Shown here: piece by piece, positions 2,563-45,771 of the stretch
How the letters are laid out: the number at the start of each line of letters is the position of its first letter
How positions within the stretch are numbered: the stretch's first letter is position 1
DNA from: a virus
UHGV virus genome: UHGV-0286546
Strand: one strand, 5' to 3'
Length of the DNA: 64,000 nucleotides
Notes under the pieces: model-generated
Told to the model about the DNA's origin: nothing
Seen by the model: the letters and a program-made list of their open reading frames with translations, nothing else
Databases searched by the model: none
Program-made: the position numbers and the translations under genes

Positions 2563-2650
2563 GGAGGAATGGCAGAGTGGCTTAATGCAGCGGTTTACTA
2601 AACCGTCGTACCGAAAGGTGCCGTGGGTTCAAATCCTACTTCCTCCGCCA
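2563..2650 (+). tRNA. tRNA-Ser (class II, long variable arm, G73), anticodon reads ACU as hand-folded
   Basis: Acceptor GGAGGAA/TTCCTCC, discriminator G, encoded CCA, long variable arm CGTACCGAAAGGTGCCG, T arm GGGTTCAAATCC; anticodon loop TTACTAA. Confidence 0.8.
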
Positions 2651-2657
2651 ATTTATT

Positions 2658-2751
2658 AGGTCTGTCGTTCAATGGTTAGGACACTAGGCTTATACCCTAG
2701 CGAGCGTCTGATTAACGCGAAATCCCAGTTCGAGTCTGGGCGGACCTACCA
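2658..2751 (+). tRNA. class II tRNA (long 23-nt variable arm, A73) with anticodon loop CTTATAC = anticodon UAU as hand-folded (Leu-like body, Ile AUA anticodon)
   Basis: Acceptor AGGTCTG/CGGACCT, D stem GTTC/GGAC, anticodon stem CTAGG/CCTAG, T arm CCCAG-TTCGAGT-CTGGG, A + CCA. Confidence 0.7.
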
Positions 2752-2776
2752 GTTTTAAATAAGAAAGGAAGTATAA

Positions 2777-2971
2777 ATGAGCACACGTCAAGAATATAAT
2801 AAAAAAATTTTAGCACATATTTCTGAAAAAATAGACCAGTGTTCAGATATGCGTTTTGTACAAATTCTGTGGGCATTGAGAATTGATGATGGACAAGATA
2901 ATTTCTACGAAGAATCGAAAGAAACGTTAGAAAAAGTAGAAAACAATCTAAAGAAAATTAATAACGAATAA
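2777..2971 (+). CDS. hypothetical protein
   Basis: ORF with SD aaggaag. Confidence 0.5.
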   Translation: MSTRQEYNKKILAHISEKIDQCSDMRFVQILWALRIDDGQDNFYEESKETLEKVENNLKKINNE

Positions 2972-2984
2972 TATTATTTCCGGT

Positions 2985-3013
2985 TTTACAATATTTTTAA
3001 CAAGACATATATT
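2985..3013 (+). promoter_or_regulatory. sigma70-like promoter GTTTTACA-N17-TATATT
   Basis: -35 TTTACA 2985-2990, 17-nt spacer, -10 TATATT; upstream of vWA gene. Confidence 0.45.
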
Positions 3014-3046
3014 TGTTTATAGATTAACAGAAAAAAGGAAGTGGAT

Positions 3047-4531
3047 ATGTCTGATAATAAAACAATGACTGAAAAAGGTGCTATTACTAATCAATCTACA
3101 TTAGACAAAGTTGTAGATTGGTTTTATCATGGAGCCGCATTACGTAGAGAAAAAAACAAAGACCGTATTATAGCTTTGTTTGATGATGCTTTTAAACAGG
3201 ATAAAACCAAAGCATTGCGTATTTTATTTTATATTCGTGATATTCGTGGTGGTCAAGGTGAAAGACGCATTTTTAGAATTTGCTTAAATCATTTGGCAAA
3301 AATAGAATCTGCTTGGTTAAAAGACAATTTGGCATTAATTGCTGAATACGGCAGATATGATGATTATTTGTGCTTGCTTGATACAGAAATTAAAAGTGCT
3401 GTAATTGATTTCGTTAAAGCACAATTAGATAAAGATATTGCTGCAATAGATAGCAATACACCTATTTCATTGCTTGCCAAATGGATGCCTTCCGTTACAA
3501 CCAAGAATAAAGAAAAAAGAAGATATTTAAATGCTCTTTTGAATTCTGGTAAATTTGGCACAGTAAAAAATTATAGACAAACGTTATCTAAACTTCGTGA
3601 TAAATTAAATATTGTTGAAAAGAATCTTTGCAATAAAGCCTTTGCTGAAATTGAATATTCTAAAGTTTCTTCTAATGCAATGTCTAAGTATTCAAAAACT
3701 AGAATTTCATCTGGATTAGCTGGTACTTTTTGGCGCAATGACTTAGATAGATTTAAAATGTATTTAGACGCTGTTAAAAACGGTAAAACAATCGACGGCA
3801 AAGAAGTAAAAATAAATGCAAAAACCTTATATCCATATGATGTTATTACAAAATATATGAGTGGTTATAGTATAAGTCATCAAGAAGATCCTGCAGCGGA
3901 AGCTCAATGGAATGCTTTACCTGATTATGTACCAGAGATTAACGGCATTGTAATTTATGATACTTCGGGTTCAATGTATGGATTACCTATGGCTGTATCT
4001 TTGTCGTTGGCTATTTATATTGCTGAAAGAAATAAATCAGAAGTTTGGCGTAATTATGTTATTCCATTCTCATCTAATGCGACTTGGAAAAAAGTAAAGG
4101 GTAACAATTTAGTAGAAAAAATTGAATCTATTTATACTGGAGATTGTTCAAATACTAATTTACAAGCAGCCTTTGATCTTATTTTAGGTAAAGCTATATA
4201 TGCGCAAGTACCTAAAGAAGATATGCCAAAACAGCTGATTATTATTAGTGATATGGAATTTGATTCGGTTTCTTCTAATAACCAAACTAATTATGAAGCT
4301 ATAAAAAGCAAATATAAGAAAGCTGGTTATGACTTACCACAATTAATCTGGTGGAACGTTGAATCAAGAAGCAATCAAACACCGATTACAGTAAATGATA
4401 AAAATTGTTTATTGCTTTCTGGCTGTTCACCGGTAGTTATGCAAGTAGCTTTGGGTGGTTCATACGATTTTATGGAAGCAATCGATAAAATTATTAACCA
4501 AGAACGTTATAGTTGCATCAATTATAATTAG
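3047..4531 (+). CDS. vWA-domain protein with N-terminal alpha-helical domain; Ro60/TROVE-like (DUF2828-type) architecture
   Basis: MIDAS motif DTSGSM ~residue 300 followed by second acidic motif ISDMEFD; N-terminal ~300 aa helical with FYIRDIRGGQGERRIF segment; 494 aa like Rsr/Ro60; ATG 3047 6 nt after SD aaggaag (GTG at 3041 also possible). Confidence 0.8.
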   Translation: MSDNKTMTEKGAITNQSTLDKVVDWFYHGAALRREKNKDRIIALFDDAFKQDKTKALRILFYIRDIRGGQGERRIFRICLNHLAKIESAWLKDNLALIAEYGRYDDYLCLLDTEIKSAVIDFVKAQLDKDIAAIDSNTPISLLAKWMPSVTTKNKEKRRYLNALLNSGKFGTVKNYRQTLSKLRDKLNIVEKNLCNKAFAEIEYSKVSSNAMSKYSKTRISSGLAGTFWRNDLDRFKMYLDAVKNGKTIDGKEVKINAKTLYPYDVITKYMSGYSISHQEDPAAEAQWNALPDYVPEINGIVIYDTSGSMYGLPMAVSLSLAIYIAERNKSEVWRNYVIPFSSNATWKKVKGNNLVEKIESIYTGDCSNTNLQAAFDLILGKAIYAQVPKEDMPKQLIIISDMEFDSVSSNNQTNYEAIKSKYKKAGYDLPQLIWWNVESRSNQTPITVNDKNCLLLSGCSPVVMQVALGGSYDFMEAIDKIINQERYSCINYN

Positions 4532-4650
4532 TTCTTAATAACTATTAAAGACTGTGAAAAACGTACAGCAATCTATAAAATATTTTATATTGAAGACTTG
4601 CTGTGTTTTAACAGCATGATAAGGTATTAATTTCGGTTAATACCTGTTTA

Positions 4651-4716
4651 TAAGGAAGGGCCGAAACAAAAGTTTTTCGTTAAAAGACAGTCTTTACGGT
4701 CCTTCCTTTTTTTTAT
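4651..4716 (+). terminator. rho-independent terminator (branched hairpin + T8)
   Basis: aaggaagggccg...cggtccttcc followed by tttttttt; two further hairpins at 4556-4650. Confidence 0.6.
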
Positions 4717-4728
4717 CAAAGGATAGGA

Positions 4729-4977
4729 ATGTTTACAATGTTAGATTTGCATAAAAAGTCAATATATAATAAAGAAGAATTGGATAAAGCAGATTTATGT
4801 GGATGTTTCTATTGCTGCGAAGTATTTGATCCGAGTGAAATAAAAGAATACACTGATAACGGAAACACTGCACTTTGCCCATATTGTAAAGTTGATTCTG
4901 TAATACCTCTTAATAAAAACGATGAAGAGTCTAAAGAAATTTTACAAAAAATGTATGGATATTTCTTTAAAGATTAA
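4729..4977 (+). CDS. zinc-ribbon protein (CxC...CC...CPYC)
   Basis: ORF with SD aaagga; four Cys pairs. Confidence 0.6.
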   Translation: MFTMLDLHKKSIYNKEELDKADLCGCFYCCEVFDPSEIKEYTDNGNTALCPYCKVDSVIPLNKNDEESKEILQKMYGYFFKD

Positions 4978-5057
4978 AATTTTATTTATTTTTTGTTTTA
5001 CATTTATATTCTATATTATATAAATATATTGTTTTTAAGTCAATATAAAAATTTTAT

Positions 5058-5131
5058 TCGGGGGTCGTCTAGTGGCAGGACATGAGATTTTGGCTCTCAT
5101 AACGTTGGTTCGAATCCAGCCCCCCGAACCA
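5058..5131 (+). tRNA. tRNA-Gln (UUG)
   Basis: Acceptor TCGGGGG/CCCCCGA, D stem GTCT/GGAC, anticodon stem TGAGA/TCTCA loop TTTTGGC, T arm GTTGG-TTCGAAT-CCAGC, A+CCA. Confidence 0.85.
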
Positions 5132-5153
5132 AAAATTGAAAGGAAAAGAAAAA

Positions 5154-5380
5154 TGAAGTTATATGATAGTGGAATTATTTTAGGTAGTGTAATTGCATTT
5201 ATGATATATGGAATAGGGTATATTATAAATGGAAAAATTAATGAACAGCCTAAAGTAGACTATCAAGAACAAAGAATTCTAAACGAAGGTTATGTAAAAA
5301 CTAATTATACAGAAGATCAAATTTTCTACAGTGATTACCAAGAATGTGTAGAATATAAAGATCATTTTTATTGTTATTAA
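5154..5380 (+). CDS. small membrane protein
   Basis: ATG at 5154 after gaaaggaaaag; listed ORF 5072 starts inside tRNA-Gln and is N-terminally over-extended; one hydrophobic helix. Confidence 0.45.
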
Positions 5381-5394
5381 TTTAGGAAGTAAAG

Positions 5395-5643
5395 ATGAAA
5401 AAAGTATTGTTAGGCATTTTTATTGTTTTATTGTTAACTGCTTGTGCTCAAGAAAGAGTACCGTACGTTAAAACAGATTGTAGAAATTGTAATTCTCAAT
5501 ATACCGTAAGAAAACCTGTAGAAATTGTATACGAAGAGATTACTTATACTACTGTTTATGAACCAAGAACATATGCTAAGACAAAAAGAGTAACGGTTCC
5601 ATATAAAAATTGTGAAAAAACTTATAAAAAATACTGTCGTTAA
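5395..5643 (+). CDS. putative lipoprotein
   Basis: Signal peptide with lipobox LLTAC; SD ggaag. Confidence 0.6.
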   Translation: MKKVLLGIFIVLLLTACAQERVPYVKTDCRNCNSQYTVRKPVEIVYEEITYTTVYEPRTYAKTKRVTVPYKNCEKTYKKYCR

Positions 5644-5730
5644 TAAAAAATTGCTTTACAAATAAAAATTTTATGATAATATAAATATATAAATTAAAAA
5701 AGAAGGGTTCTATAAACTATGATGAAAATG
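5641..5730 (+). promoter_or_regulatory. conserved promoter cassette TTGCTTTACA-N16-TAATAT plus leader (copy 1 of 2)
   Basis: ~80% identical to 11101-11190; followed by 19-codon ORF and terminator. Confidence 0.45.
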
Positions 5731-5810
5731 ATGTTTAAATATATTAGATTTTATAAACAGCTCAATCGAGGTGTATAATTTTCTATTACGTTTTTATCAG
5801 ATAGAATTTA

Positions 5811-5848
5811 AAAGCCTCGAGAATAAGAATCGAGGCTTTATTATTATA
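5811..5848 (+). terminator. rho-independent terminator
   Basis: gcctcga-loop-tcgaggc followed by T-rich run. Confidence 0.55.
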
Positions 5849-5855
5849 AGTTTTT

Positions 5856-5940
5856 GGTTGGGTCGCATAGCGGCAATTGCTGGAGACTGTAAATCTCTTC
5901 TCTTCGGAGTTCGTAGGTTCGAGTCCTACCCCAACCACCA
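5856..5940 (+). tRNA. tRNA-Tyr (GUA)
   Basis: Acceptor GGTTGGG/CCCAACC, anticodon loop CTGTAAA, long variable arm CTCTTCGGAG, T arm GTAGG-TTCGAGT-CCTAC, A+CCA. Confidence 0.85.
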
Positions 5941-5945
5941 TTTAT

Positions 5946-6023
5946 AGAGAGGTAACTCAGTTGGTCTAGAGTATTCGCCTGATATGCGAAGAGTCGTGAG
6001 TTCGAGTCTCACCCTCTCTACCA
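5946..6023 (+). tRNA. tRNA-Ile (GAU)
   Basis: Acceptor AGAGAGG/CCTCTCT, D arm ACTC..GAGT, anticodon stem TTCGC/GCGAA loop CTGATAT, T arm GTGAG-TTCGAGT-CTCAC, A+CCA. Confidence 0.85.
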
Positions 6024-6042
6024 AATTATTTAGGGAGCATTT

Positions 6043-6600
6043 TTGTTGAGTTATAACAGATTAAAAAATTTTAGAAAATTACGAAAACTAGCTATATTAC
6101 AAGGATTTGGCGGAAAATGTCAATGTTGTGGTTATAACAAATGCGTTCAAGCTTTAGAATTTCATCATTTAAATTGTAATGATAAAGAATTTTCTATTAG
6201 TACCATTATGAATAAAAACTGGAACGAAATAAAAAATGAATTAAAAAAATGTATTTGTGTGTGTGCCAATTGTCATAGAGAAATACACAATAATTTATTA
6301 GAAATTGATGTTAATAAACAATATTTTGACGAAAACGCCGTACAAGATTATGAATGTGCTATAAATAAGGTAACAAAATATAGCAAATGTCCAATTTGCG
6401 GAGCATTAAAACCAGAATATAACAAATTTTGTTCTCGAAAATGTGCCGCGAAATCAAGAGATAGAGTAAATTGGGAACAATACGAAAGTTTAGTTTATAT
6501 TATTGATAATAAAATTGAATCTATTAATAGTATTGCTTCTAAATTAAATATTTCTTGGCAAGCTGTAAAGAAAAGATATAAAAAATTAAAATCGCAATAA
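6043..6600 (+). CDS. HNH homing endonuclease
   Basis: HNH motif EFHHL...CANCHREIH with flanking CxxC pairs; TTG start after SD tagggag; inserted between tRNA genes. Confidence 0.8.
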   Translation: MLSYNRLKNFRKLRKLAILQGFGGKCQCCGYNKCVQALEFHHLNCNDKEFSISTIMNKNWNEIKNELKKCICVCANCHREIHNNLLEIDVNKQYFDENAVQDYECAINKVTKYSKCPICGALKPEYNKFCSRKCAAKSRDRVNWEQYESLVYIIDNKIESINSIASKLNISWQAVKKRYKKLKSQ

Positions 6601-6617
6601 AGATTTGAATTATTTAT

Positions 6618-6693
6618 GGTCATGTAGCTCAGTTAGTAGAGCACCAGACTGAAAATCTGGGTGTCGTTGGGGCGGAACCAACCGTGACCACCA
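6618..6693 (+). tRNA. tRNA-Phe (GAA) with non-canonical T-loop GGCGGAA
   Basis: Acceptor GGTCATG/CGTGACC, D arm TAGCTCAGTTAGTAGAGCA, anticodon stem CCAGA/TCTGG loop CTGAAAA, T stem GTTGG/CCAAC, A+CCA. Confidence 0.75.
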
Positions 6694-6699
6694 TTTATT

Positions 6700-6775
6700 G
6701 GAAGTATAGCTCAGCCGGTAGAGCAACGAGCTTTTAACTCGTGGGTCATGGGTTCGAATCCCTTTGCTTCCACCA
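6700..6775 (+). tRNA. tRNA-Lys (UUU)
   Basis: Acceptor GGAAGTA/TGCTTCC, anticodon stem ACGAG/CTCGT loop CTTTTAA, T-loop TTCGAAT, A+CCA. Confidence 0.8.
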
Positions 6776-6783
6776 ATTTTTAT

Positions 6784-6860
6784 GGCGATGTAGTTCAGCC
6801 GGTTAGAACGTATCCCTCATAAGGATAAGGTCACTTGTTCGAGTCAAGTCATCGCTACCA
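6784..6860 (+). tRNA. tRNA-Met/Ile2 (CAU), elongator type
   Basis: Acceptor GGCGATG/CATCGCT, anticodon stem TATCC/GGATA loop CTCATAA, T arm ACTTG-TTCGAGT-CAAGT, A+CCA. Confidence 0.8.
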
Positions 6861-6913
6861 TCTTTTTAAATTTTAAGTTCTAAACATAAAATGATTATTA
6901 CGGAGAAATTTTT

Positions 6914-7390
6914 ATGCCTAGAATTATAAAACATACAGATAAAGTTTTAGTAGAACGCTGTGAAAGTTATTGGTTAAGTCTACGACATGTAAATAGTTAT
7001 TTACCAGGGATAGAAATTTTTAAAAATCCGTCAAAGTCTGATCTTTTAAAAATGTTAAGACAAACATCTACAATACGAGGATTTGCTGATCACGAAGATG
7101 TAATTGTATGGAATGGAGAAGAAGAAATTCATGGTACAATCGAAAAGGCAATACGACAAAAGTATGGTGATGATACTTTTTCAGACGGTAAGCATAGGAT
7201 AGCAAGATTTCAAGTATTTAGAGATAAAAATAACCTTTTAGGATTTGAAGACAATGAGGGTCCCGATACAGATGAGGTAACGAATGAGTTAAAACAAACA
7301 CTTTTGGGTAACCCAAATTTCACTAAACTCTTTTCGAAAGAAGAAATACTAAATGCACAATCTCATCACATTATAGACGATGAAGAATAA
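6914..7390 (+). CDS. hypothetical protein; paralog of 10557..11102 and 47718..48302 (NPSK...IRGFAD...DVIVWNG domain) lacking the shared N-terminal leader
   Basis: Shared motifs ERCES, NPSK, TIRGFADHEDVIVWNG, KQTLLGNPNFTKLFSKEEILNAQSH. Confidence 0.6.
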   Translation: MPRIIKHTDKVLVERCESYWLSLRHVNSYLPGIEIFKNPSKSDLLKMLRQTSTIRGFADHEDVIVWNGEEEIHGTIEKAIRQKYGDDTFSDGKHRIARFQVFRDKNNLLGFEDNEGPDTDEVTNELKQTLLGNPNFTKLFSKEEILNAQSHHIIDDEE

Positions 7391-7452
7391 ATAAAATTGT
7401 TTTACTTTTATTAAAAATAATATATATTTATTTTAAATAGCTTTGCATTAGA

Positions 7453-7529
7453 GGATTCTTAGCTCAATTGGATAGAGCAATAGCCTTCTAAGCTATGGGT
7501 TGCAAGTTCGAATCTTGCAGAATCCGCCA
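7453..7529 (+). tRNA. tRNA-Arg (UCU)
   Basis: Acceptor GGATTCT/AGAATCC, anticodon stem ATAGC/GCTAT loop CTTCTAA, T arm TGCAA-GTTCGAATC-TTGCA, G+CCA then T7 run. Confidence 0.85.
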
Positions 7530-7548
7530 TTTTTTTATTATTTTCTGT

Positions 7549-7580
7549 TTTACATTTTTTAATTATGGTGTATTTTATTA
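7549..7580 (+). promoter_or_regulatory. sigma70-like promoter GTTTTACA-N17-TATTTT
   Basis: -35 TTTACA at 7549; -10-like TATTTT. Confidence 0.35.
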
Positions 7581-7589
7581 ATATCTGTT

Positions 7590-7830
7590 ATGGCGGAAGT
7601 ATAGACGCTAGATGGAGTGTGGAGAGAGGAAGTGAATCCGGAATAGCTTACCTCGCAGATGAAAAGAATACGGCCGAAAGCGGTGAATAATCGCAATCGG
7701 AGAAACCGTAGAACGGAGGCTCAGACGGGATGCAAACTAACCAATTAAGTCACAATTCGCGAAGTGATGTCATCGAGCCCAAAACAAAGACCACACGTTC
7801 TAAAGGGTTGGTATTTTCTTAATAGTATAT
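7590..7830. ncRNA. candidate structured ncRNA (GC-rich ORF-free island)
   Basis: ~240 nt with GC clearly above genome background, no ORF, downstream of promoter-like element and tRNA-Arg; analogous position to T4 small stable RNAs. Confidence 0.3.
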
Positions 7831-7887
7831 CATGGCTTTAGATAACAGATATTAACAAAGTATATAGTGAAAGGAATGAATAAATAG

Positions 7888-8295
7888 ATGTTGGAAAAAA
7901 TAAAAGAAAAAATTAAAGATTGGTGGTTTTCTAGAGATAGTATTTTTAATTTTTATTTCTCAATATCTTCATCTGGTATTTTTATAAATTTTACTATATT
8001 AGATTACGGTATAGATTTAGATATCACTATTCCGTGTATTCTTCCTAGCTTCTATATTAAAACCTTTTATGAAAAAGAACAAGAAATCTTTACAAATAAA
8101 TTTTGGGGTGAACAGTTTACATTTGTTTCTGATTTGCGTACAGAATTTGGTACAGGTTGGTTTGTTAATCAAGATCATGCTGGTTTTAGTGCTCAAGCGT
8201 CAATTTTAGGTTTTAATTATAGTTATGAATTGAGAGATACAAGGCATTGGGATTACTTTAAAAATTGCTGGAAGAGCTGTTCAGAAGATAAATAA
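7888..8295 (+). CDS. hypothetical protein
   Basis: ORF with SD gaaaggaatg. Confidence 0.5.
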   Translation: MLEKIKEKIKDWWFSRDSIFNFYFSISSSGIFINFTILDYGIDLDITIPCILPSFYIKTFYEKEQEIFTNKFWGEQFTFVSDLRTEFGTGWFVNQDHAGFSAQASILGFNYSYELRDTRHWDYFKNCWKSCSEDK

Positions 8296-8350
8296 ATAAG
8301 ACATTCTAAAGTTCTAAGTATATATTTGGTATATTTAGGACTTTTTATTT

Positions 8351-9106
8351 ATGAGTAGATTCAGAACAATTGTAGAAAATATCATAAAAACTTTTACAGA
8401 AGACGCGTTCTCAGACAGAGATAGATATAAAGAGGCAATTGATGTATATCTTAATGTATTAGATAAAATGGAACCGTCTCTAAATACAGATAAAATTATT
8501 ACAGATAGCGCAGAATGTGTCAGTTTACAAGTAGATACACCTCATGGTCCTCTAATTGTTAGTGTTTCTCTAGATAAAGATGTACATAATGCCGGTGTAT
8601 ATTATCCAGAATACAACGCTATTGAACTTAACATACACGGTATAATGGATTTGAGTGATGAAACTATAAACATGACAGATCCGATTACCGGTGAAGAAAA
8701 TGTTACAGGTATAAATGCTAAATACTTATATAAAATTTTATCTTCTCGTGCCGTTCAAGATACATTTATTCACGAATATACCCATTTTATAGATGATAAA
8801 ACAAAGTACTCCATGAAAAAGCAAGCAGATACATATAAAAATATAGATTATTTCAATAAACCTTACGAAAGAAATGCGTTTTATATTGCTTGGTTAAATA
8901 AAATCGTTTCATATACCTATAAAAAATATGGTAAAATAATGAAAGAGTTGACACCAGATGAACGATTAAATTTTTTAAGAAATGCTTGGAAAGAAGACGA
9001 AGAATTTGTAGAATATTATAATAAACTTGAACCTGCTGCAAAGAAAAGATTTATGTCAAGATTATATAATTATTTTAGTACTGATTTCTGGTCGGATGCT
9101 GCATAA
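8351..9106 (+). CDS. leader-family protein 1 (MSRFRTIVEN...), putative zinc metallopeptidase (HEYTH)
   Basis: Conserved N-terminal leader; HExxH motif TFIHEYTHFID. Confidence 0.65.
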   Translation: MSRFRTIVENIIKTFTEDAFSDRDRYKEAIDVYLNVLDKMEPSLNTDKIITDSAECVSLQVDTPHGPLIVSVSLDKDVHNAGVYYPEYNAIELNIHGIMDLSDETINMTDPITGEENVTGINAKYLYKILSSRAVQDTFIHEYTHFIDDKTKYSMKKQADTYKNIDYFNKPYERNAFYIAWLNKIVSYTYKKYGKIMKELTPDERLNFLRNAWKEDEEFVEYYNKLEPAAKKRFMSRLYNYFSTDFWSDAA

Positions 9107-9123
9107 CAAAAGGTAGATTTAAA

Positions 9124-9708
9124 ATGAGTAAAATAAGAACAATTATTGAAAATATCCTTTATGAAGGTGATAAAAAAATATTTGATAAAGAATCTGGATA
9201 CAATAGCTCTAAAGATGAGTTATATATTTATGATTTACTTAAAAAGAAATGGCCAGATGTTAAAATGAGCTATACCAGAGATGATTTTATTAATCCAGAA
9301 ACTCATCGTCATTTTCAATTAGATTTTTACGTACCTTCTGAAAATATGGGAATACAGGTAAATAAACATTGGAAACACGGTAGAAGAGTATATGATCCAT
9401 CTGATCCAAATTGTCAAAAAGATGTTCGTTGGTTAAAAAATAAAGGTGGAGATTTTTATAACAAAGTTTTGCATACCTGGACCGAATTAGATCCTATTAA
9501 ACGAGAAGTTGCAAAGCAAATAGGTATGAAATACGTAGAAATCTTTAATTTAGACGAATTTAATACTTGGTACAATAATCCAGAATTAACATACGAAGAA
9601 TATAAACAGGCTCCAGATTCTTTACAATACGACAGTGATGAATATTTTGCTGCAAAAGCTAATAATCGTGATATTTATGGTAATGATTCCGATCCGTTAG
9701 GTGCATAA
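9124..9708 (+). CDS. leader-family protein 2 (MSKIRTIIEN...); possible Vsr/DUF559-like nuclease fold
   Basis: Leader; segment FQLDFYVPSENMGIQVN resembles DUF559 core. Confidence 0.55.
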   Translation: MSKIRTIIENILYEGDKKIFDKESGYNSSKDELYIYDLLKKKWPDVKMSYTRDDFINPETHRHFQLDFYVPSENMGIQVNKHWKHGRRVYDPSDPNCQKDVRWLKNKGGDFYNKVLHTWTELDPIKREVAKQIGMKYVEIFNLDEFNTWYNNPELTYEEYKQAPDSLQYDSDEYFAAKANNRDIYGNDSDPLGA

Positions 9709-9774
9709 TTACGGTTTTACTTTTATTTTAATATAAATTATTATATATAAAATTTAAAATAGATAGGTATAAGA

Positions 9775-10530
9775 ATGAGTAAGTTTAAAACCATCGTAGA
9801 AAATGCATTATATGAAGTTGGAGCATTGCCTTTTCCAAAAAATATTCAAGTATATGCTAAAAAAGAAAAAGTAAATTTATTTGAAATTAAATATTTACGA
9901 AAAGATGGTAAATTGGATGAACCAGGTGGAATTTGTTATGCTAAAACTGGAATTTGGAAAGATATCCGTGAAAATGAAAATGCTTTTATACGCACGCAAT
10001 TAGATGAAAAATTTAGACCAGATCAAGGCAATTTTAGTAAATATCGTGGTGGTATGATTGTATTTGCTCTGAGTGTCAATACTGTCATTGATAAATTGAA
10101 TTATAATCAATTAGTTGCAGAAATTAAAAAGATTTGGTATACCTTAATAAACAATACCTTTAAAAATAAAATGATTAAAGGTGTAGTTAATTCTATGAAA
10201 AATACTTATGCTAACATTGAAGATGCAGAGATCGGAGGTATTACAATAGGTAATAACTTTAAAGGCATGTATTTTGATGGTAATAAAGTATATAATGATA
10301 AATCAACGAGTTTAGAAATAAATGACATTTCTAGTGAGATGTTGTTATTACTAGCTATTGAAATTTGTAAAGCATTTCGTCAAGATAGCGTTTTAATCAA
10401 AGATTTCAATAAAAATAAATTCTTTTTGTGTGATTCTGAAGAAGTAGAAGGCGAAATTCCAGAAGAAAAAATAAAAAACGCTTCTAAAGACTTAGCAAAC
10501 TTAAAGAATGTAAATACAAAAACAAAATAA
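9775..10530 (+). CDS. leader-family protein 3 (MSKFKTIVEN...)
   Basis: Leader conserved at protein and nucleotide level. Confidence 0.6.
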   Translation: MSKFKTIVENALYEVGALPFPKNIQVYAKKEKVNLFEIKYLRKDGKLDEPGGICYAKTGIWKDIRENENAFIRTQLDEKFRPDQGNFSKYRGGMIVFALSVNTVIDKLNYNQLVAEIKKIWYTLINNTFKNKMIKGVVNSMKNTYANIEDAEIGGITIGNNFKGMYFDGNKVYNDKSTSLEINDISSEMLLLLAIEICKAFRQDSVLIKDFNKNKFFLCDSEEVEGEIPEEKIKNASKDLANLKNVNTKTK

Positions 10531-10556
10531 TGTATGATTTAGCAGAAAGTATAATT

Positions 10557-11102
10557 ATGAGTAGATTTAGAACAATTGTTGAAAATGCTATTGCCAAAGT
10601 AAATAAAAAACTTTTAAAAGAACGTTGTGAATCGCTTTTTATAGCACCAATGAGTCTACATAATGATGAGCGAGAAGTAGTAGAAGTACTTTATAATCCT
10701 TCGAAAGCAGAATTCAATAGAGCATTTAGAGAATGGGGTACTATACGAGGACTTGCTGACAATGAAGATGTAATTATTTGGGATGGATATAAAGCTGTTC
10801 ATGATTCAGTAAAAGAACAATTAGAAAAACAGTATGGTGCAACCTTTCCAACTAATTACGGGACATTATGCAGATTTGAAACAACACGCGAATATCCATT
10901 AATGCTCGAAGATGATACAAAACAGTATAGTCATGGTAAAGAATTAGATCCAGTAAAGCAAACCTTATTTAAAAATCCTAACTTTACACGATTATTTTCA
11001 GAAGAGGAAATACTAAATGCTGATTCTCATAATTTTGCTAATGGAGAATTCGGTGAGTTTCAAAATGATCCAGAAATATTAAAAAAGTTTGGATATGATT
11101 AA
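10557..11102 (+). CDS. leader-family protein 4 (MSRFRTIVEN...), NPSK/IRGLAD domain paralog of 6914..7390
   Basis: ATG 10557 after listed upstream extension; paralogy motifs. Confidence 0.6.
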   Translation: MSRFRTIVENAIAKVNKKLLKERCESLFIAPMSLHNDEREVVEVLYNPSKAEFNRAFREWGTIRGLADNEDVIIWDGYKAVHDSVKEQLEKQYGATFPTNYGTLCRFETTREYPLMLEDDTKQYSHGKELDPVKQTLFKNPNFTRLFSEEEILNADSHNFANGEFGEFQNDPEILKKFGYD

Positions 11103-11190
11103 AAATTGCTTTACAGATATAAAATTTTATGATATTGTATAAATATAAAATAAAAAAGAGAGTTCTATAAATTATGATTAATACGAATAT
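11101..11190 (+). promoter_or_regulatory. conserved promoter cassette TTGCTTTACA-N17-TATTGT plus leader (copy 2 of 2)
   Basis: ~80% identical to 5641-5730; followed by 21-codon ORF (11174-11239) and terminator. Confidence 0.45.
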
Positions 11191-11275
11191 TTTACATTGT
11201 TGGTGTCATCATTTACTTCACAGAGGTGTTGATGCTTAGTTATACGTGTTAATTCATAAAATTATTAGTTTCAAG

Positions 11276-11309
11276 CCTCTAGGATAATTACTTTCTAGAG
11301 GTTTTTTTA
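11276..11309 (+). terminator. rho-independent terminator
   Basis: cctctag-loop-ctagagg then T8. Confidence 0.6.
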
Positions 11310-11313
11310 TTAT

Positions 11314-11387
11314 GGACTGTTGGTAGAGTGGTTATACGTTAGTCTGCAAAACTAATTACACAAGTTCGAATCTTGTACAGTCCTCCA
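11314..11387 (+). tRNA. tRNA-Cys (GCA)
   Basis: Acceptor GGACTGT/ACAGTCC, anticodon stem TTAGT/ACTAA loop CTGCAAA, T arm ACAAG-TTCGAAT-CTTGT, T+CCA. Confidence 0.8.
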
Positions 11388-11430
11388 ATTTTACGCATAG
11401 AAGTATATATCAATAAAATGGTCTATTCTT

Positions 11431-11506
11431 GTGTGCGTAGCTTAATTGGTAAAGCGTCGGTTTGTGGTACCGAAGGATACGAGTTCGAATCTCGCTGCTC
11501 ACCCCA
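11431..11506 (+). tRNA. tRNA-His (GUG); no encoded G-1, one U-U mismatch in acceptor
   Basis: Anticodon stem TCGGT/ACCGA loop TTGTGGT, D arm GCTT-AATTGGTA-AAGC, discriminator C + CCA. Confidence 0.7.
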
Positions 11507-11512
11507 CTTTAT

Positions 11513-11586
11513 AGGGACTTAGTTTAATGGTAAAACACTAGTCTCCAAAACTAGATATAGGAGTTCGATTCTCTTAGTCCTTGCCA
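11513..11586 (+). tRNA. tRNA-Trp (CCA)
   Basis: Acceptor AGGGACT/AGTCCTT, D arm GTTT-AATGGTA-AAAC, anticodon stem CTAGT/ACTAG loop CTCCAAA, T-loop TTCGATT, G+CCA. Confidence 0.8.
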
Positions 11587-44187: not shown

Positions 44188-45771
44188 TTAGGCGTGAGCT
44201 TGGTTGAAGTTAGCAATAGCACCACGTACCAAGTACTCAGGCTTATTGATGAACAAATCATAGAAAGACATAGCGCCTTTGTGATTCTTCAAATTAGGAG
44301 CTTGGAAAGTAGGTGTGAAATAGAGCGGGATCCACTCAGCTAAAACAATTGCCGAATCACCTAACTGGAATCCTTTGAAACCGAAGACAACCTGATCAAC
44401 CGGTAATGTCTTAGTATAAGGAACAGCGATAACAGCAATAGTACCGTCACGCAATGTACCAGCTAAGTAAGGTCCAATCGGTTTCTTAGCTTCAGGAGCT
44501 GCTTTGAAACCTTCGATTTGTTCTACGATTGTTAAACCTTGACGAGCAGAAACAATCATGAATTCAACTGTACCACGACCAGCAACTTCTTGGATAATAC
44601 CACGAGCACTAGAAATAGTAGTTGTATAAGCAGAATATCTCTGTTGTAAGGTTAAGTTAGCACCGTTTGCAGCACAATCAAATGTCAAATCAGCGTTCGG
44701 AGTAGCAGCAGCATATACACTGTGGATCAATGACAAATCACGTTCCCAACGAATAGTACCAGCAATTTGGTTAGCAATCAATTCATCAGTGTCAATTGCT
44801 AAGTGAGCGTTCATTACCAAACCAGCTGCAACACTGTAAGAACTCATTAACGGGTGCTGCTTAGCTAAAATAGGCTGATTAGGAATATCGAACTGAATCT
44901 TACGAATCAAATCAACATCTGTTTCAACATCAACAGCAGCTTCGAAACTCAGCATAGCATTCTCAGCAATAGCATCAGCATACATAGTAGCATCCAATTT
45001 CAATGTAGCTACACCAGTCTGAGCATTAACTGTACCAGAAACACCACGACCAATTACATTGTATGCACCACTGTTAACACCATCCAACTGCGCAGAACCA
45101 TTACCATAGTCACGTGCAATCTCTTTACCTGCTAAACGAACGATGAACGAACCAGCACGTACTTTAACTGTAGCATCAGAAGGCAATGCAGCAGACGGAT
45201 TAGCAGTTACATCAGCAGTAGCCTGAACATCTGTATACCCAATGAACTCAGAAGAATACGTACCATCTGTCGGATTCTCAAATACAATGTCACCAGCTTC
45301 AACACCAGCAGCGTCTTGAGAATAACGTGTTTTGATGATGAAGATTTGGCCAGACTGACGATCTAAAGCTTGAATATCAGCAATGTAGTTTGCTACCATT
45401 TGCGGATAAAATACATTAACGATATCAACGACTTTAGGAGTCAAGCTTGCAACACCAGGGCTGAGCAAAGAAACAGCAGAAGTAGAAGCGTTACCGCCAA
45501 AATCTTCGTGCAGGATATTGCGACCTGTGTAAGGAGTATCTGGCTGTTGAGCGATGTATTCAGCAGTATTTTCTAAGAGCTGAACCATAGTAGCGGCTTG
45601 GTATTTAGCTTCTTTAGAGTCAGATTCCAGAGCTTTTACGAGAGCCGGGCAGCGTTTGCCGAGAGTAGATTCACTGAGAACTTCTGCAGCGTGAGCGATA
45701 CCTTTATTGATTCTTTCGCTACGGGCTTTAGCAACCAGTGACTTATTTTCAACTTTGGTTAAGATAGACAT
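44188..45771 (-). CDS. major capsid protein, T4 gp23 family
   Basis: 527 aa; segment SGQIFIIKTRYSQDAAGVEAG and C-terminal GFKGFQ resemble T4 gp23 (from memory); Ala/Gly/Thr-rich, GC-richer codon usage; N-terminal LTKVEN putative protease site; SD aggaaa. Confidence 0.7.
   Translation of the reverse strand: MSILTKVENKSLVAKARSERINKGIAHAAEVLSESTLGKRCPALVKALESDSKEAKYQAATMVQLLENTAEYIAQQPDTPYTGRNILHEDFGGNASTSAVSLLSPGVASLTPKVVDIVNVFYPQMVANYIADIQALDRQSGQIFIIKTRYSQDAAGVEAGDIVFENPTDGTYSSEFIGYTDVQATADVTANPSAALPSDATVKVRAGSFIVRLAGKEIARDYGNGSAQLDGVNSGAYNVIGRGVSGTVNAQTGVATLKLDATMYADAIAENAMLSFEAAVDVETDVDLIRKIQFDIPNQPILAKQHPLMSSYSVAAGLVMNAHLAIDTDELIANQIAGTIRWERDLSLIHSVYAAATPNADLTFDCAANGANLTLQQRYSAYTTTISSARGIIQEVAGRGTVEFMIVSARQGLTIVEQIEGFKAAPEAKKPIGPYLAGTLRDGTIAVIAVPYTKTLPVDQVVFGFKGFQLGDSAIVLAEWIPLYFTPTFQAPNLKNHKGAMSFYDLFINKPEYLVRGAIANFNQAHA

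What the first reader, a model, noticed from the sequence alone, without database searches (positions are those of the whole stretch)
2658..2751. Class II (long variable arm, A73) tRNA carrying an Ile-AUA anticodon (UAU) as hand-folded
Anticodon stem CTAGG/CCTAG is unambiguous and leaves loop CTTATAC, giving anticodon UAU. The body has a 23-nt variable arm and discriminator A like tRNA-Leu/Tyr. LeuRS does not read the anticodon, so such a tRNA could insert Leu at AUA codons. Alternatively it is a tRNA-Leu(UAA) derivative with A36U or a phage tRNA-Ile with unusual architecture. Either way it is a candidate recoding or codon-compensation device in a very AT-rich genome.
Basis: seen in the sequence. 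Interest (0 to 1): 0.55.

Follow-up and report, generated by a model that had tools for sequence, protein, structure and literature searches.

The report
Phage isoleucine tRNA with extra arm
A giant gut phage carries a real tRNA that reads the isoleucine codon AUA. It has a conserved extra arm whose loop copies the anticodon loop of the other isoleucine tRNA. It is an apparently undescribed structural variant, not evidence that AUA is recoded to leucine.

Summary
ARAGORN and Rfam call window 2658-2751 (+) a 94-nt tRNA with anticodon UAU, a 23-nt variable region, A73 and an encoded CCA.

It belongs to a discrete family: 16 loci and 8 distinct sequences in large gut or metagenomic phages. All have UAU. 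All 25 base pairs are kept, and 13 of them show compensatory changes.

The leucine-recoding idea is not supported:
- AUA is 3.0% of codons and 36% of Ile codons, and in orthologue comparisons it substitutes like AUU/AUC, not like Leu codons.
- Two family members have C73.
- The 1-72 pair is A-U or G.U.
- The D-arm is class-I-like.
- The extra arm (3 nt, 4-bp stem, 7-nt loop, 5 nt) differs from every Leu, Ser or Tyr tRNA in the same phages.
- Short 73-75-nt tRNA(UAU) genes with the same D-arm exist elsewhere, so the arm looks like a 19-nt insertion.

New point: the arm's loop is invariantly CUGAU plus two variable bases. In 5 of 8 sequences it is CUGAUAU, the exact anticodon loop of these phages' own tRNA-Ile(GAU).

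Best reading: a tRNA-Ile that decodes AUA without needing TilS. What the Ile-anticodon-like arm does is unknown; it may be a recognition element.

The parts
2658..2751 (+). 94-nt tRNA gene, anticodon UAU, 7/5 acceptor/T geometry, CCA encoded
   Evidence: ARAGORN; Rfam RF00005 at 53 bits; family covariation; family covariance model 115.8 bits
2684..2700 (+). Anticodon arm: stem CTAGG/CCTAG, loop CTTATAC; anticodon TAT at 2691-2693; U33 and A37 present, C38
   Evidence: Sequence. The loop is YTTATAC in all 8 distinct family sequences, although the search pattern left the anticodon free. Pairs 28-42 and 29-41 covary.
2701..2723 (+). Variable region (23 nt): linker CGA, 4-bp stem GCGT/ACGC, 7-nt loop CTGATTA, linker GAAAT
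   Evidence: Both linkers are invariant in 8 of 8 sequences. Stem pairs 3 and 4 covary: GCGT/ACGC, GCAT/ATGC, GCAG/CTGC.
2704..2718 (+). Extra-arm hairpin. Its loop, 2708-2714, starts with the invariant CUGAU, which reads as C32-U33-G34-A35-U36 of a tRNA-Ile(GAU) anticodon loop
   Evidence: CTGAT is invariant. The loop is CTGATAT in 5 of 8 sequences, identical to the anticodon loop of the phages' own tRNA-Ile(GAU). The motif occurs once in the window. In IMG/VR it occurs only in this family, apart from one chance hit.
2748..2751 (+). Discriminator A73 followed by encoded CCA; position 72 (2747) is T in all 8 family sequences
   Evidence: A73 in 6 of 8 sequences and C73 in 2 of 8. The 1-72 pair is A-U (4) or G.U (4).
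2563..2650 (+). Upstream neighbour in the same tRNA array: tRNA-Ser with anticodon ACU, 7 nt before the UAU tRNA
   Evidence: ARAGORN; Rfam 53.9 bits; conserved in L006, L007 and L041
5946..6023 (+). The phage's own tRNA-Ile(GAU). Its anticodon loop CTGATAT (5979-5985) is the sequence copied by the extra-arm loop in most family members
   Evidence: ARAGORN; sequence. MAFFT aligned this loop with the extra-arm loop without prompting. CTGAT anticodon loops occur only in tRNA-Ile(GAU) among 111 distinct tRNAs.
6784..6860 (+). tRNA with CAU anticodon (elongator Met or tRNA-Ile2 type); a possible second AUA decoder if the host's TilS modifies it
   Evidence: ARAGORN. A near-identical copy in relative L007 has TAT instead of CAT.

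Best explanation
This is a functional phage tRNA-Ile(UAU) that supplies decoding capacity for AUA, read as isoleucine. The genome is about 30% GC and uses AUA for about 3% of all codons. With U34 instead of C34, the tRNA does not depend on lysidine formation by the host's TilS.

Its body is a class-I tRNA(UAU) lineage that also exists without the arm in other phages. A 19-nt insertion in the variable region created a fifth arm, which has since been kept under strong selection. That arm has a 4-bp stem. Its 7-nt loop displays CUGAU, the 5' part plus anticodon of a tRNA-Ile(GAU) anticodon loop.

Shown: the gene, its fold, its conservation, its array context, the Ile-like behaviour of AUA, the short relatives, and the loop identity.

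Inferred: charging with Ile by the host IleRS, which would read A35, U36 and A37 and usually A73. Also inferred is that the arm is a recognition element for IleRS or another factor specific to tRNA-Ile. Such an element might offset the poor recognition of U34 by Trp-type bacterial IleRS. The role of the arm is the weakest step.
For: - The tRNA call and its registration.
- Family: 16 loci and 8 distinct sequences, all with UAU, even though the anticodon was left free in the search pattern.
- Structure: 100% pairing and 13 of 25 compensatory pairs, including 2 of 4 in the extra arm. The linkers and CUGAU are invariant while all acceptor-stem 5' columns vary.
- The family is discrete: 111-117 bits against at most 51 bits for any other tRNA in the loci searched. 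The short L044 gene, fetched later, scores 57.4 bits.
- AUA use: 3.0% of codons and 36% of Ile codons, with a standard stop-codon pattern.
- AUA substitutes like an Ile codon: 62 AUU/AUC partners against 36 Leu and 35 Val; logL Ile -598.8, Val -632.4, Leu -681.0. It sits at 91-92% Ile columns of DUF2828.
- Short relatives: L044 (75 nt) shares the D-arm and anticodon arm. The 73-nt gene of Streptomyces phage Coruscant, annotated tRNA-Ile, shares the D-arm, G1.U72 and A73.
- E. coli tRNA-Ile(GAU) also has A1-U72 and A73.
- Literature: E. coli IleRS charges UAU poorly, while Arg-type IleRS charges it well (PMC3575796). A B. subtilis tRNA-Ile1 G34U mutant decodes AUA (PMC3919564).
Against: - No aminoacylation or expression data exist; the identity is inferred.
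- C38 replaces A38, and two members have C73. A73 and the anticodon positions are strong determinants for E. coli IleRS (PMC9976931).
- A15, U48, G18-G19 and A73 together overlap the E. coli LeuRS identity set (PMC9976931).
- The window already carries a CAU tRNA that may be an Ile2 type, so the need for a second AUA decoder is not obvious.
- In a standard L-shape a variable arm points away from where IleRS binds the anticodon (my own structural knowledge). A direct 'second anticodon for IleRS' role is therefore geometrically awkward.
- Loop positions 6 and 7 of the arm vary (AU, UA, UU), so it is not a complete anticodon loop with a conserved purine 37.
- The host is unknown.
Confidence: 0.65

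Rival explanations
1. Leucine-accepting class-II tRNA, the first reader's idea and the nematode nev-tRNA analogy. LeuRS ignores the anticodon, charges this tRNA with Leu, and AUA is read partly or wholly as Leu.
For: The tRNA has a long variable region. A73 is present in 6 of 8 members. An A15-U48 Levitt pair is possible, and G18-G19 are present. These overlap the E. coli Leu identity elements (PMC9976931). There is a precedent: nev-tRNA-Ile(UAU) is charged only with Leu in vitro (PMC3333845).
Against: AUA substitutes like Ile, not Leu. Two members have C73, which abolishes leucylation in E. coli (PMC9976931). The D-arm has a 4-bp stem and 8-nt loop, unlike the phages' tRNA-Leu with a 3-bp stem and 11-nt loop. 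The arm layout is unlike all Leu, Ser and Tyr tRNAs in the same genomes. The covariance model shows no kinship with Leu tRNAs. Short class-I relatives exist. Even in nematodes, no mistranslation was detected in vivo (PMC4300185).
Confidence: 0.08
2. A tRNA that switches or has two heads. The two hairpins, UAU and GAU, can each stack under the D-stem as the working anticodon arm. One molecule would then be charged through the GAU hairpin, or would read AUU/AUC as well as AUA.
For: Both hairpins have 7-nt loops with U at loop position 2, and both triplets are Ile anticodons. The 3' linker GAAAT has the length of a normal class-I variable loop. The invariant A46.G62 could extend the arm to 5 pairs; this is read from the sequence.
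Against: The arm stem has only 4 Watson-Crick pairs. The loop position equivalent to 37 is not a conserved purine (A in 6 of 8, U in 2 of 8). At least four of the eight distinct lineages already carry a separate tRNA-Ile(GAU). No such tRNA is known. ARAGORN, Rfam and RNAalifold all place UAU in the canonical arm.
Confidence: 0.05
3. A tRNA-like decoy or regulator that does not act mainly in translation. The GAU-loop arm, or the whole molecule, would soak up a host factor aimed at tRNA-Ile, such as an anticodon nuclease, toxin, modification enzyme or sensor. Alternatively, it may be a ligand of the neighbouring Ro-like DUF2828 protein.
For: The loop sequence of an accessory arm is conserved. 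The gene lies 296 nt upstream of a DUF2828/DUF7788 'RNA-binding protein' gene. From my own knowledge, phage tRNAs that counter anticodon nucleases are known.
Against: All universal tRNA features needed for translation are kept and conserved: the 7/5 helices, U8, A14, G18-G19, the T-loop TTCGANT, U33, A37 and the encoded CCA. The anticodon loop is as conserved as the arm loop. Linkage to DUF2828 is not constant: in L005 the tRNA is 4.7 kb downstream of it, and in L012, L021 and L025 it lies among other tRNAs. Rfam gives only tRNA hits and no Y-RNA-like hit.
Confidence: 0.1
4. An ordinary tRNA-Ile(UAU) whose extra arm is a tolerated, functionally neutral insertion. The resemblance to the GAU anticodon loop would be coincidence.
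For: Other class-I tRNAs in related phages carry one-off long variable regions: L006 tRNA-Asn at 91 nt and L021 tRNA-Arg(UCU) at 87 nt. Short relatives apparently work without the arm.
Against: A neutral insertion would decay. Across sequences only 72-94% identical, the arm instead keeps its length and its pairing, by compensatory change. It also keeps 5 of 7 loop bases and all 8 linker bases. A random 7-mer has about a 6e-5 chance of matching the cognate GAU loop exactly, though that comparison was made after the fact.
Confidence: 0.12

Closest known systems
TilS-independent bacterial and phage tRNA-Ile(UAU). Examples: Mycoplasma mobile tRNAIle2(UAU), the B. subtilis tRNAIle1 G34U suppressor, the tRNA-Ile(TAT) of Streptomyces phage Coruscant, and the short gene at L044:1312-1386
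   Same: UAU anticodon with U33 and A37, and A73 in most members. The presumed task is the same: reading AUA as Ile without lysidine. The Coruscant gene has an identical D-arm (TCGTTCAATGGTTAGGAC); the L044 gene differs at one base (GTCC for GTTC). The 1-72 pair is weak in all of them (PMC3575796; PMC3919564).
   Different: Those tRNAs are ordinary class-I tRNAs of 73-77 nt with a 4-5-nt variable loop. This family has a 23-nt variable region that forms a conserved fifth arm with a GAU-anticodon-like loop.
Nematode nev-tRNA-Ile(UAU) (PMC3333845, PMC4300185)
   Same: A long variable arm combined with a UAU anticodon, conserved across a lineage.
   Different: nev-tRNAs derive from tRNA-Leu and are leucylated in vitro. 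This family shows no kinship to Leu tRNAs, has a class-I D-arm, includes C73 variants, has short class-I relatives, and AUA behaves as Ile. It is phage-encoded, not eukaryotic.
Bacterial allo-tRNAs, in which UAU is a predominant anticodon (PMC5389517, PMC7609411)
   Same: Non-canonical tRNAs that carry a long V-arm and a UAU anticodon and are found in metagenomes.
   Different: Allo-tRNAs have 8/4 or 9/3 acceptor/T helices, a long D-stem with a tetraloop, and G73 or U73 (Ser identity). This family is 7/5, with a 4-bp D-stem and 8-nt loop, and A73 or C73.
Canonical bacterial class-II tRNAs (Leu, Ser, Tyr)
   Same: A variable region longer than 10 nt that forms a stem-loop.
   Different: In the same phages, Leu, Ser and Tyr V-arms typically have 0-3 (usually 1) unpaired 5' nt, a loop of mostly 3-5 nt and 1-3 unpaired 3' nt. 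This family has 3 nt, a 4-bp stem, a 7-nt loop and 5 nt. It also differs in the D-arm, the 1-72 pair and the anticodon.

Membership tests
tRNA (Rfam RF00005) | Cloverleaf with a 7-bp acceptor stem, D-, anticodon- and T-arms, and conserved U8, A14, G18-G19, U33 and a T-loop, scoring above the gathering threshold | tested here: met
   53.0 bits against a gathering score of 29; ARAGORN call; all 25 pairs kept in 8 sequences
tRNA-Ile(UAU), an AUA decoder that does not need lysidine | Anticodon UAU in a 7-nt loop with U33, U36-A37 (the t6A context) and discriminator A73 | tested here: met
   The loop is YUUAUAC in 8 of 8 sequences. A73 is present in the window and in 6 of 8 sequences; C73 in 2 of 8.
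tRNA-Ile(UAU), an AUA decoder that does not need lysidine | AUA is read as isoleucine in the genome that carries it | tested here: met
   The codon-substitution profile fits Ile best. AUA occurs at 91-92% Ile columns. This test is indirect, because the host's tRNA-Ile2 could also read AUA.
tRNA-Ile(UAU), an AUA decoder that does not need lysidine | Aminoacylated with Ile by IleRS | not testable with these tools
   Needs an aminoacylation assay. The host and its IleRS type (Trp or Arg at the residue that reads the wobble base) are unknown.
Class-II tRNA of Leu/Tyr/Ser type | A long variable arm (more than 10 nt, stem-loop) | tested here: met
   A 23-nt region with a covarying 4-bp stem
Class-II tRNA of Leu/Tyr/Ser type | Body and arm geometry, and sequence kinship, typical of Leu, Ser or Tyr tRNAs. 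These include a 3-bp D-stem with a large D-loop, G1-C72, and a V-arm with short linkers and a 3-5-nt loop | tested here: not met
   The D-stem has 4 bp with an 8-nt loop. The 1-72 pair is A-U or G.U. The arm has 3-nt and 5-nt linkers and a 7-nt loop. The covariance model scores Leu, Tyr and Ser tRNAs at 45 bits or below, no higher than class-I tRNAs.
Bacterial tRNA-Leu identity (E. coli set) | A73 is essential (C73 abolishes charging), together with A15-U48 and G18-G19 in the correct D-loop register | tested here: inconclusive
   A15, U48 and G18-G19 are present. A73 occurs in 6 of 8 members but C73 in L005 and L032. The D-loop has 3 nt before G18-G19, against 4 in the phages' tRNA-Leu (PMC9976931).
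nev-tRNA (nematode V-arm tRNAs) | Derived from tRNA-Leu and charged with Leu despite a non-Leu anticodon | tested here: not met
   There is no sequence kinship to Leu tRNAs, and short class-I relatives exist. Charging itself cannot be tested here.
allo-tRNA | An 8/4 or 9/3 acceptor/T-stem configuration, a tRNA-Sec-like D-arm, and G73 or U73 | tested here: not met
   The 7/5 configuration holds with full covariation. The D-stem has 4 bp with an 8-nt loop, and position 73 is A or C.
Bacterial Y RNA / YrlA-type tRNA mimic next to a Ro-like gene | A tRNA-like module lacking a normal anticodon arm, a Ro-binding helix, and constant linkage to the Ro gene | tested here: not met
   A complete anticodon arm is present. 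Rfam gives only tRNA hits. Linkage to DUF2828 varies between relatives.

The most novel reading that the evidence does not exclude
The extra arm is a relocated identity element. By displaying the C-U-G-A-U of the tRNA-Ile(GAU) anticodon loop, it would let a host IleRS that recognises U34 poorly still accept a UAU-anticodon tRNA. The same could apply to another factor specific to tRNA-Ile. Recognition could be direct, or could work by the two hairpins swapping places under the D-stem. That would be a natural example of anticodon recognition being uncoupled from the decoding anticodon within one tRNA. The phage would gain an AUA decoder that does not need TilS and works across hosts.
Probability: 0.2. 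Interest if true: 0.85.

Novelty: new variant of a known kind. Interest (0 to 1): 0.6.

Why it matters
Phage tRNA-Ile(UAU) genes that help AT-rich phages read AUA are familiar. A class-I tRNA that has gained a fifth arm and kept it across diverged phages is not described in any paper I could find, least of all an arm whose loop copies the other Ile anticodon loop.

If the arm is an identity or handling element, it shows a new way to solve a known problem: most bacterial IleRS enzymes charge UAU-anticodon tRNAs poorly. It would also be a ready-made design for engineering orthogonal or codon-specific tRNAs.

The result also removes a false lead. There is no sign that AUA is reassigned to leucine in this phage. 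Automated annotation should not treat such long-armed tRNAs as Leu-like.

Tried and rejected
1. **Leu recoding.** Tested by codon substitution and found Ile-like.
2. **Stop-codon recoding or an alternative code.** Rejected: 78% of the window is covered by ORFs of at least 80 aa, and the stops are TAA 71, TGA 23, TAG 10.
3. **Derivation from tRNA-Leu(UAA), Tyr or Ser.** The covariance model and pairwise comparisons show no kinship. The nearest non-family tRNAs are class-I; the His and Gln top hits reflect the D-arm search pattern that fetched them.
4. **Pairing between the D-loop and the arm loop.** The single-sequence MFE fold pairs UGGUUAG with CUGAUUA. Rejected: position 20a varies (U, A, G) while its partner G stays invariant, and G19 and G22 are needed elsewhere.
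5. **Pseudoknot between the arm loop (GAU) and the 3' linker (AUC).** There is no covariation, and it would compete with the T-stem and with U48.
6. **Arm hairpin as a repeated genomic element, promoter or terminator.** Rejected: there is one copy in the window, none elsewhere in IMG/VR apart from a chance hit in a GC-rich coding region, and no terminator-like site.
7. **Y-RNA or ligand of the Ro-like protein.** There is no Rfam hit, and the synteny is not constant.
8. **The 75-nt tRNA-Ile(tat) of L007, L008 and L010 as a short orthologue.** Rejected. It is a C34-to-U copy of the CAU tRNA lineage (window 6784-6860), with two acceptor-stem mismatches and one anticodon-stem mismatch.
9. **Close relatives among cultured phages.** Megablast of 12 kb found only tRNA-sized matches. 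The capsid protein is at most 39% identical to any INPHARED phage.
10. **Exact look-ups of the DUF2828 protein.** Both failed because of a one-residue difference or a different start.
11. **'U12-G23' as an Ile determinant.** The review PMC9976931 lists this pair and the family does have U12.G23. I did not use it, because E. coli tRNA-Ile(GAU) itself reads U12-A23 (sequence confirmed).
12. **Literature.** Five full-text searches found no description of this architecture.

Full report
**Observation**

The window segment 2658-2751 (+) reads AGGTCTG TC GTTC AATGGTTA GGAC A CTAGG CTTATAC CCTAG CGA GCGT CTGATTA ACGC GAAAT CCCAG TTCGAGT CTGGG CGGACCT A CCA.

ARAGORN calls exactly these coordinates as tRNA-Ile with anticodon tat. 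The Rfam tRNA model matches at 53.0 bits, against a gathering score of 29. It keeps the same anticodon-loop registration and places a 20-nt insertion in the variable region.

The single-sequence MFE fold is not the cloverleaf. That is common for unmodified tRNA sequences, and the comparative data below override it.

**Context**

The gene is the second of 12 tRNAs in an array at 2563-11586. The genome is about 30% GC.

The window is part of a 480,241-bp scaffold from an ENA metagenome. The capsid protein at 44188-45771 (-) is gp23-like and matches that scaffold exactly. No close relative exists among 50,697 deposited phage genomes.

The standard genetic code fits. ORFs of at least 80 aa cover 78% of the window, and the stop codons are TAA 71, TGA 23 and TAG 10. 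AUA accounts for 488 of 16,535 codons (3.0%) and 36% of Ile codons.

**A conserved family**

Two orthologues were found through synteny, independently of any RNA pattern. I took relatives of the neighbouring DUF2828 protein and fetched their contigs. L005 and L006 carry 94-95-nt tRNA(tat) genes.

DNA patterns then found more members in viral, metagenome and genome collections. Those patterns left the anticodon and the whole arm hairpin free.

In total there are 16 loci and 8 distinct sequences, 72-94% identical to one another. All have the anticodon TAT.

The cloverleaf plus a fifth helix keeps 100% of 200 pair cells. Thirteen of 25 pairs show compensatory changes, including two of the four pairs of the extra arm (GCGT/ACGC, GCAT/ATGC, GCAG/CTGC). 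None of 500 shuffles reaches these values, and slid controls give 22-50% pairing. RNAalifold predicts the same structure on its own.

A covariance model built from the family scores members at 111-117 bits and every other tRNA in the 40 sources searched at 51 bits or less. The family is therefore a discrete entity.

One caveat: the patterns fixed GGACAC, ACCC and GCGAGC, so the invariance of those bases is partly imposed. This does not apply to the anticodon, the rest of the arm stem, the arm loop or the 3' linker. It also does not apply to the members found by synteny or by the D-arm pattern.

**What kind of tRNA it is**

The body is class-I-like. The D-stem has 4 bp with an 8-nt loop. The phages' own tRNA-Leu has a 3-bp D-stem and an 11-nt loop.

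The 1-72 pair is A-U (4 sequences) or G.U (4 sequences), and U72 is invariant. E. coli tRNA-Ile(GAU) likewise has A1-U72 and A73.

The variable region has 3 unpaired nt, a 4-bp stem, a 7-nt loop and 5 unpaired nt. Genuine Leu, Ser and Tyr tRNAs in the same phages typically have 0-3 (usually 1) unpaired 5' nt, loops of mostly 3-5 nt and 1-3 unpaired 3' nt.

Two short relatives lack the arm:
- A pattern for a form without the arm found L044:1312-1386, a 75-nt tRNA(tat). It has the same D-arm (one base different) and the same anticodon arm, and a 4-nt variable loop (TTAT). It aligns with the family across the whole body, with a clean 19-nt gap, and at 57.4 bits it is the best non-family score.
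- Streptomyces phage Coruscant carries a 73-nt gene annotated tRNA-Ile, anticodon tat. It has the identical D-arm, G1.U72 and A73.

The long form is therefore best read as a class-I tRNA(UAU) lineage that acquired an insertion, not as a derivative of a class-II tRNA.

**Which amino acid**

I tested AUA without assuming a code. I aligned 40 orthologous ORF pairs between the window and related contigs and counted which codons face AUA.

Excluding AUA itself, there were 195 partner codons: 62 AUU/AUC, 36 Leu codons and 35 Val codons. This matches the profile of AUU/AUC (Ile 0.48, Val 0.15, Leu 0.14) and not that of Leu codons (Leu 0.61, Ile 0.08). The log-likelihoods are -598.8 for Ile, -632.4 for Val and -681.0 for Leu.

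In the DUF2828 gene, two of six AUA sites fall in columns that are 91-92% Ile across 119 homologues, and Leu is not among the three commonest residues at either.

Two family members have C73, a change that abolishes leucylation in E. coli (PMC9976931). Only IleRS is known to read an N34-A35-U36 anticodon (identity sets in PMC9976931).

These results argue for Ile and against Leu. They are indirect, because a host tRNA-Ile2 could also read AUA. The overlap with Leu determinants (A15-U48, G18-G19 and A73 in most members) means that only an aminoacylation assay can settle the point.

**The extra arm**

The linkers CGA and GAAAT are invariant. So are the first five loop bases, CUGAU. Meanwhile all seven 5' acceptor-stem columns vary. 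Selection on the arm's single-stranded parts is therefore as strong as on the anticodon loop.

CUGAU is C32-U33-G34-A35-U36 of a tRNA-Ile(GAU) anticodon loop. In 5 of 8 sequences the full loop is CUGAUAU. That is the exact anticodon loop of the phages' own tRNA-Ile(GAU), at window 5979-5985 and in L013 and L015. Among 111 distinct tRNAs collected here, CTGAT anticodon loops occur only in tRNA-Ile(GAU). MAFFT aligned the two loops without prompting.

The last two loop bases vary (AU, UA, UU), so the loop is not a complete anticodon loop with a conserved purine 37. The invariant G45-A46 and G62-A63 (tRNA numbering from base 1 = window 2658) could form tandem G.A pairs that extend the stem. This is read from the sequence and is not tested.

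**Mechanism**

Most likely, the molecule is charged with Ile and reads the abundant AUA codon without needing TilS. This is a familiar phage strategy.

What the arm adds is inferred. E. coli IleRS charges a UAU-anticodon tRNA poorly because Trp905 reads the wobble base. Arg-type enzymes, such as those of M. mobile and B. subtilis, accept it (PMC3575796, PMC3919564). An arm that presents the well-recognised GAU loop could compensate, or it could recruit another factor specific to tRNA-Ile.

Against a direct role: from my own structural knowledge, variable arms point away from the anticodon-binding side of class-Ia synthetases. The hypothesis therefore needs either a new contact or a swap of the two hairpins under the D-stem.

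Rival readings are set out with their evidence in the rival-explanations section. They are Leu charging, a two-headed decoder, a decoy or regulator, and a neutral insertion.

**Comparison with known systems and novelty**

The family works like the known lysidine-independent tRNA-Ile(UAU) genes, and its body is related to short phage examples.

It fails the defining tests for three known groups. It is not an allo-tRNA, because it is 7/5 and not 8/4 or 9/3 and has A73 or C73 (PMC5389517). It is not a nev-tRNA, because it has no Leu ancestry (PMC3333845, PMC4300185). It is not a canonical class-II tRNA.

Five full-text searches found no description of a tRNA whose variable arm mimics an anticodon loop, or of this phage family. 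Absence from that library is not proof.

I rate it a new variant of a known kind. It is of moderate to high interest because of the conserved anticodon-like arm, not because of any recoding.

Noticed in passing
window 2563-2650 (+); also L006:7811-7900, L007:9486-9573, L041:5643-5730: A tRNA-Ser with anticodon ACU (A34) is conserved in several related phages. From my own knowledge, A34 is rare in bacterial tRNAs outside tRNA-Arg(ACG). If it were deaminated to inosine it could also read AGA (Arg). AGU is 30% of Ser codons here and AGC 7%.
   Followed up: partly
window 3047-4531 (+): A 494-aa DUF2828 + DUF7788 protein (PHROG 850, 'RNA-binding protein', vWA-like) is embedded in the tRNA array. 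Homologues occur in 711 deposited phage genomes. In relatives L004-L007 the gene again sits among tRNA genes. It may have a tRNA-related role.
   Followed up: partly
window 6618-6693 (+); also L005:161-237: The tRNA-Phe(GAA) has a non-canonical T-loop, GGCGGAA in place of TTCRANN, and a D-loop without the usual GG (…CAGTTAGTA…). A tRNA-Glu in L005 has a similar T-loop, GGCGGCA. This points to an altered D/T elbow in some tRNAs of these phages.
   Followed up: no
window 6784-6860 (+) versus L007:8025-8099: The window's CAU tRNA has a near-identical copy in L007, L008 and L010 whose anticodon is TAT (C34 to T). That copy has two acceptor-stem mismatches and one anticodon-stem mismatch. This suggests the CAU tRNA is of the Ile2 type. 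The L007 copy is either a second route to a UAU decoder or a decaying gene.
   Followed up: partly
L006:2041-2131; L021:4345-4431; L006:6042-6127: Other class-I isotypes in related phages are also unusually long: tRNA-Asn(GTT) 91 nt, tRNA-Arg(TCT) 87 nt and tRNA-Pro 86 nt. The Asn and Arg tRNAs have hairpin-forming variable regions that do not resemble anticodon loops; the Pro variable region is not predicted to fold. Each was seen only once.
   Followed up: partly
L041 (contig in a Succinivibrionaceae MAG); L037 (Melainabacteria MAG); L039 (Erysipelotrichaceae MAG): Contigs carrying the same tRNA array are binned into bacterial MAGs of three different phyla. L037 and L039 carry the same phage sequence in two different bins, so the binning is unreliable and gives no firm host clue. 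L041 has the same UAU tRNA as the window and the same tRNA order.
   Followed up: no
L004:4414-9259; L005 to L007, between the tRNA genes: Related tRNA arrays are interspersed with HNH, LAGLIDADG and T5orf172 endonuclease genes. In L004 there are also three S-AdoMet lyase paralogues. This suggests mobile-element traffic and anti-restriction functions inside the tRNA region.
   Followed up: no
window 11219-11307 (+): A weak Rfam match to OmrA-B sRNA scores 27.5 bits, below the gathering score of 40 (E = 0.09). It lies just upstream of tRNA-Cys and is probably chance.
   Followed up: no
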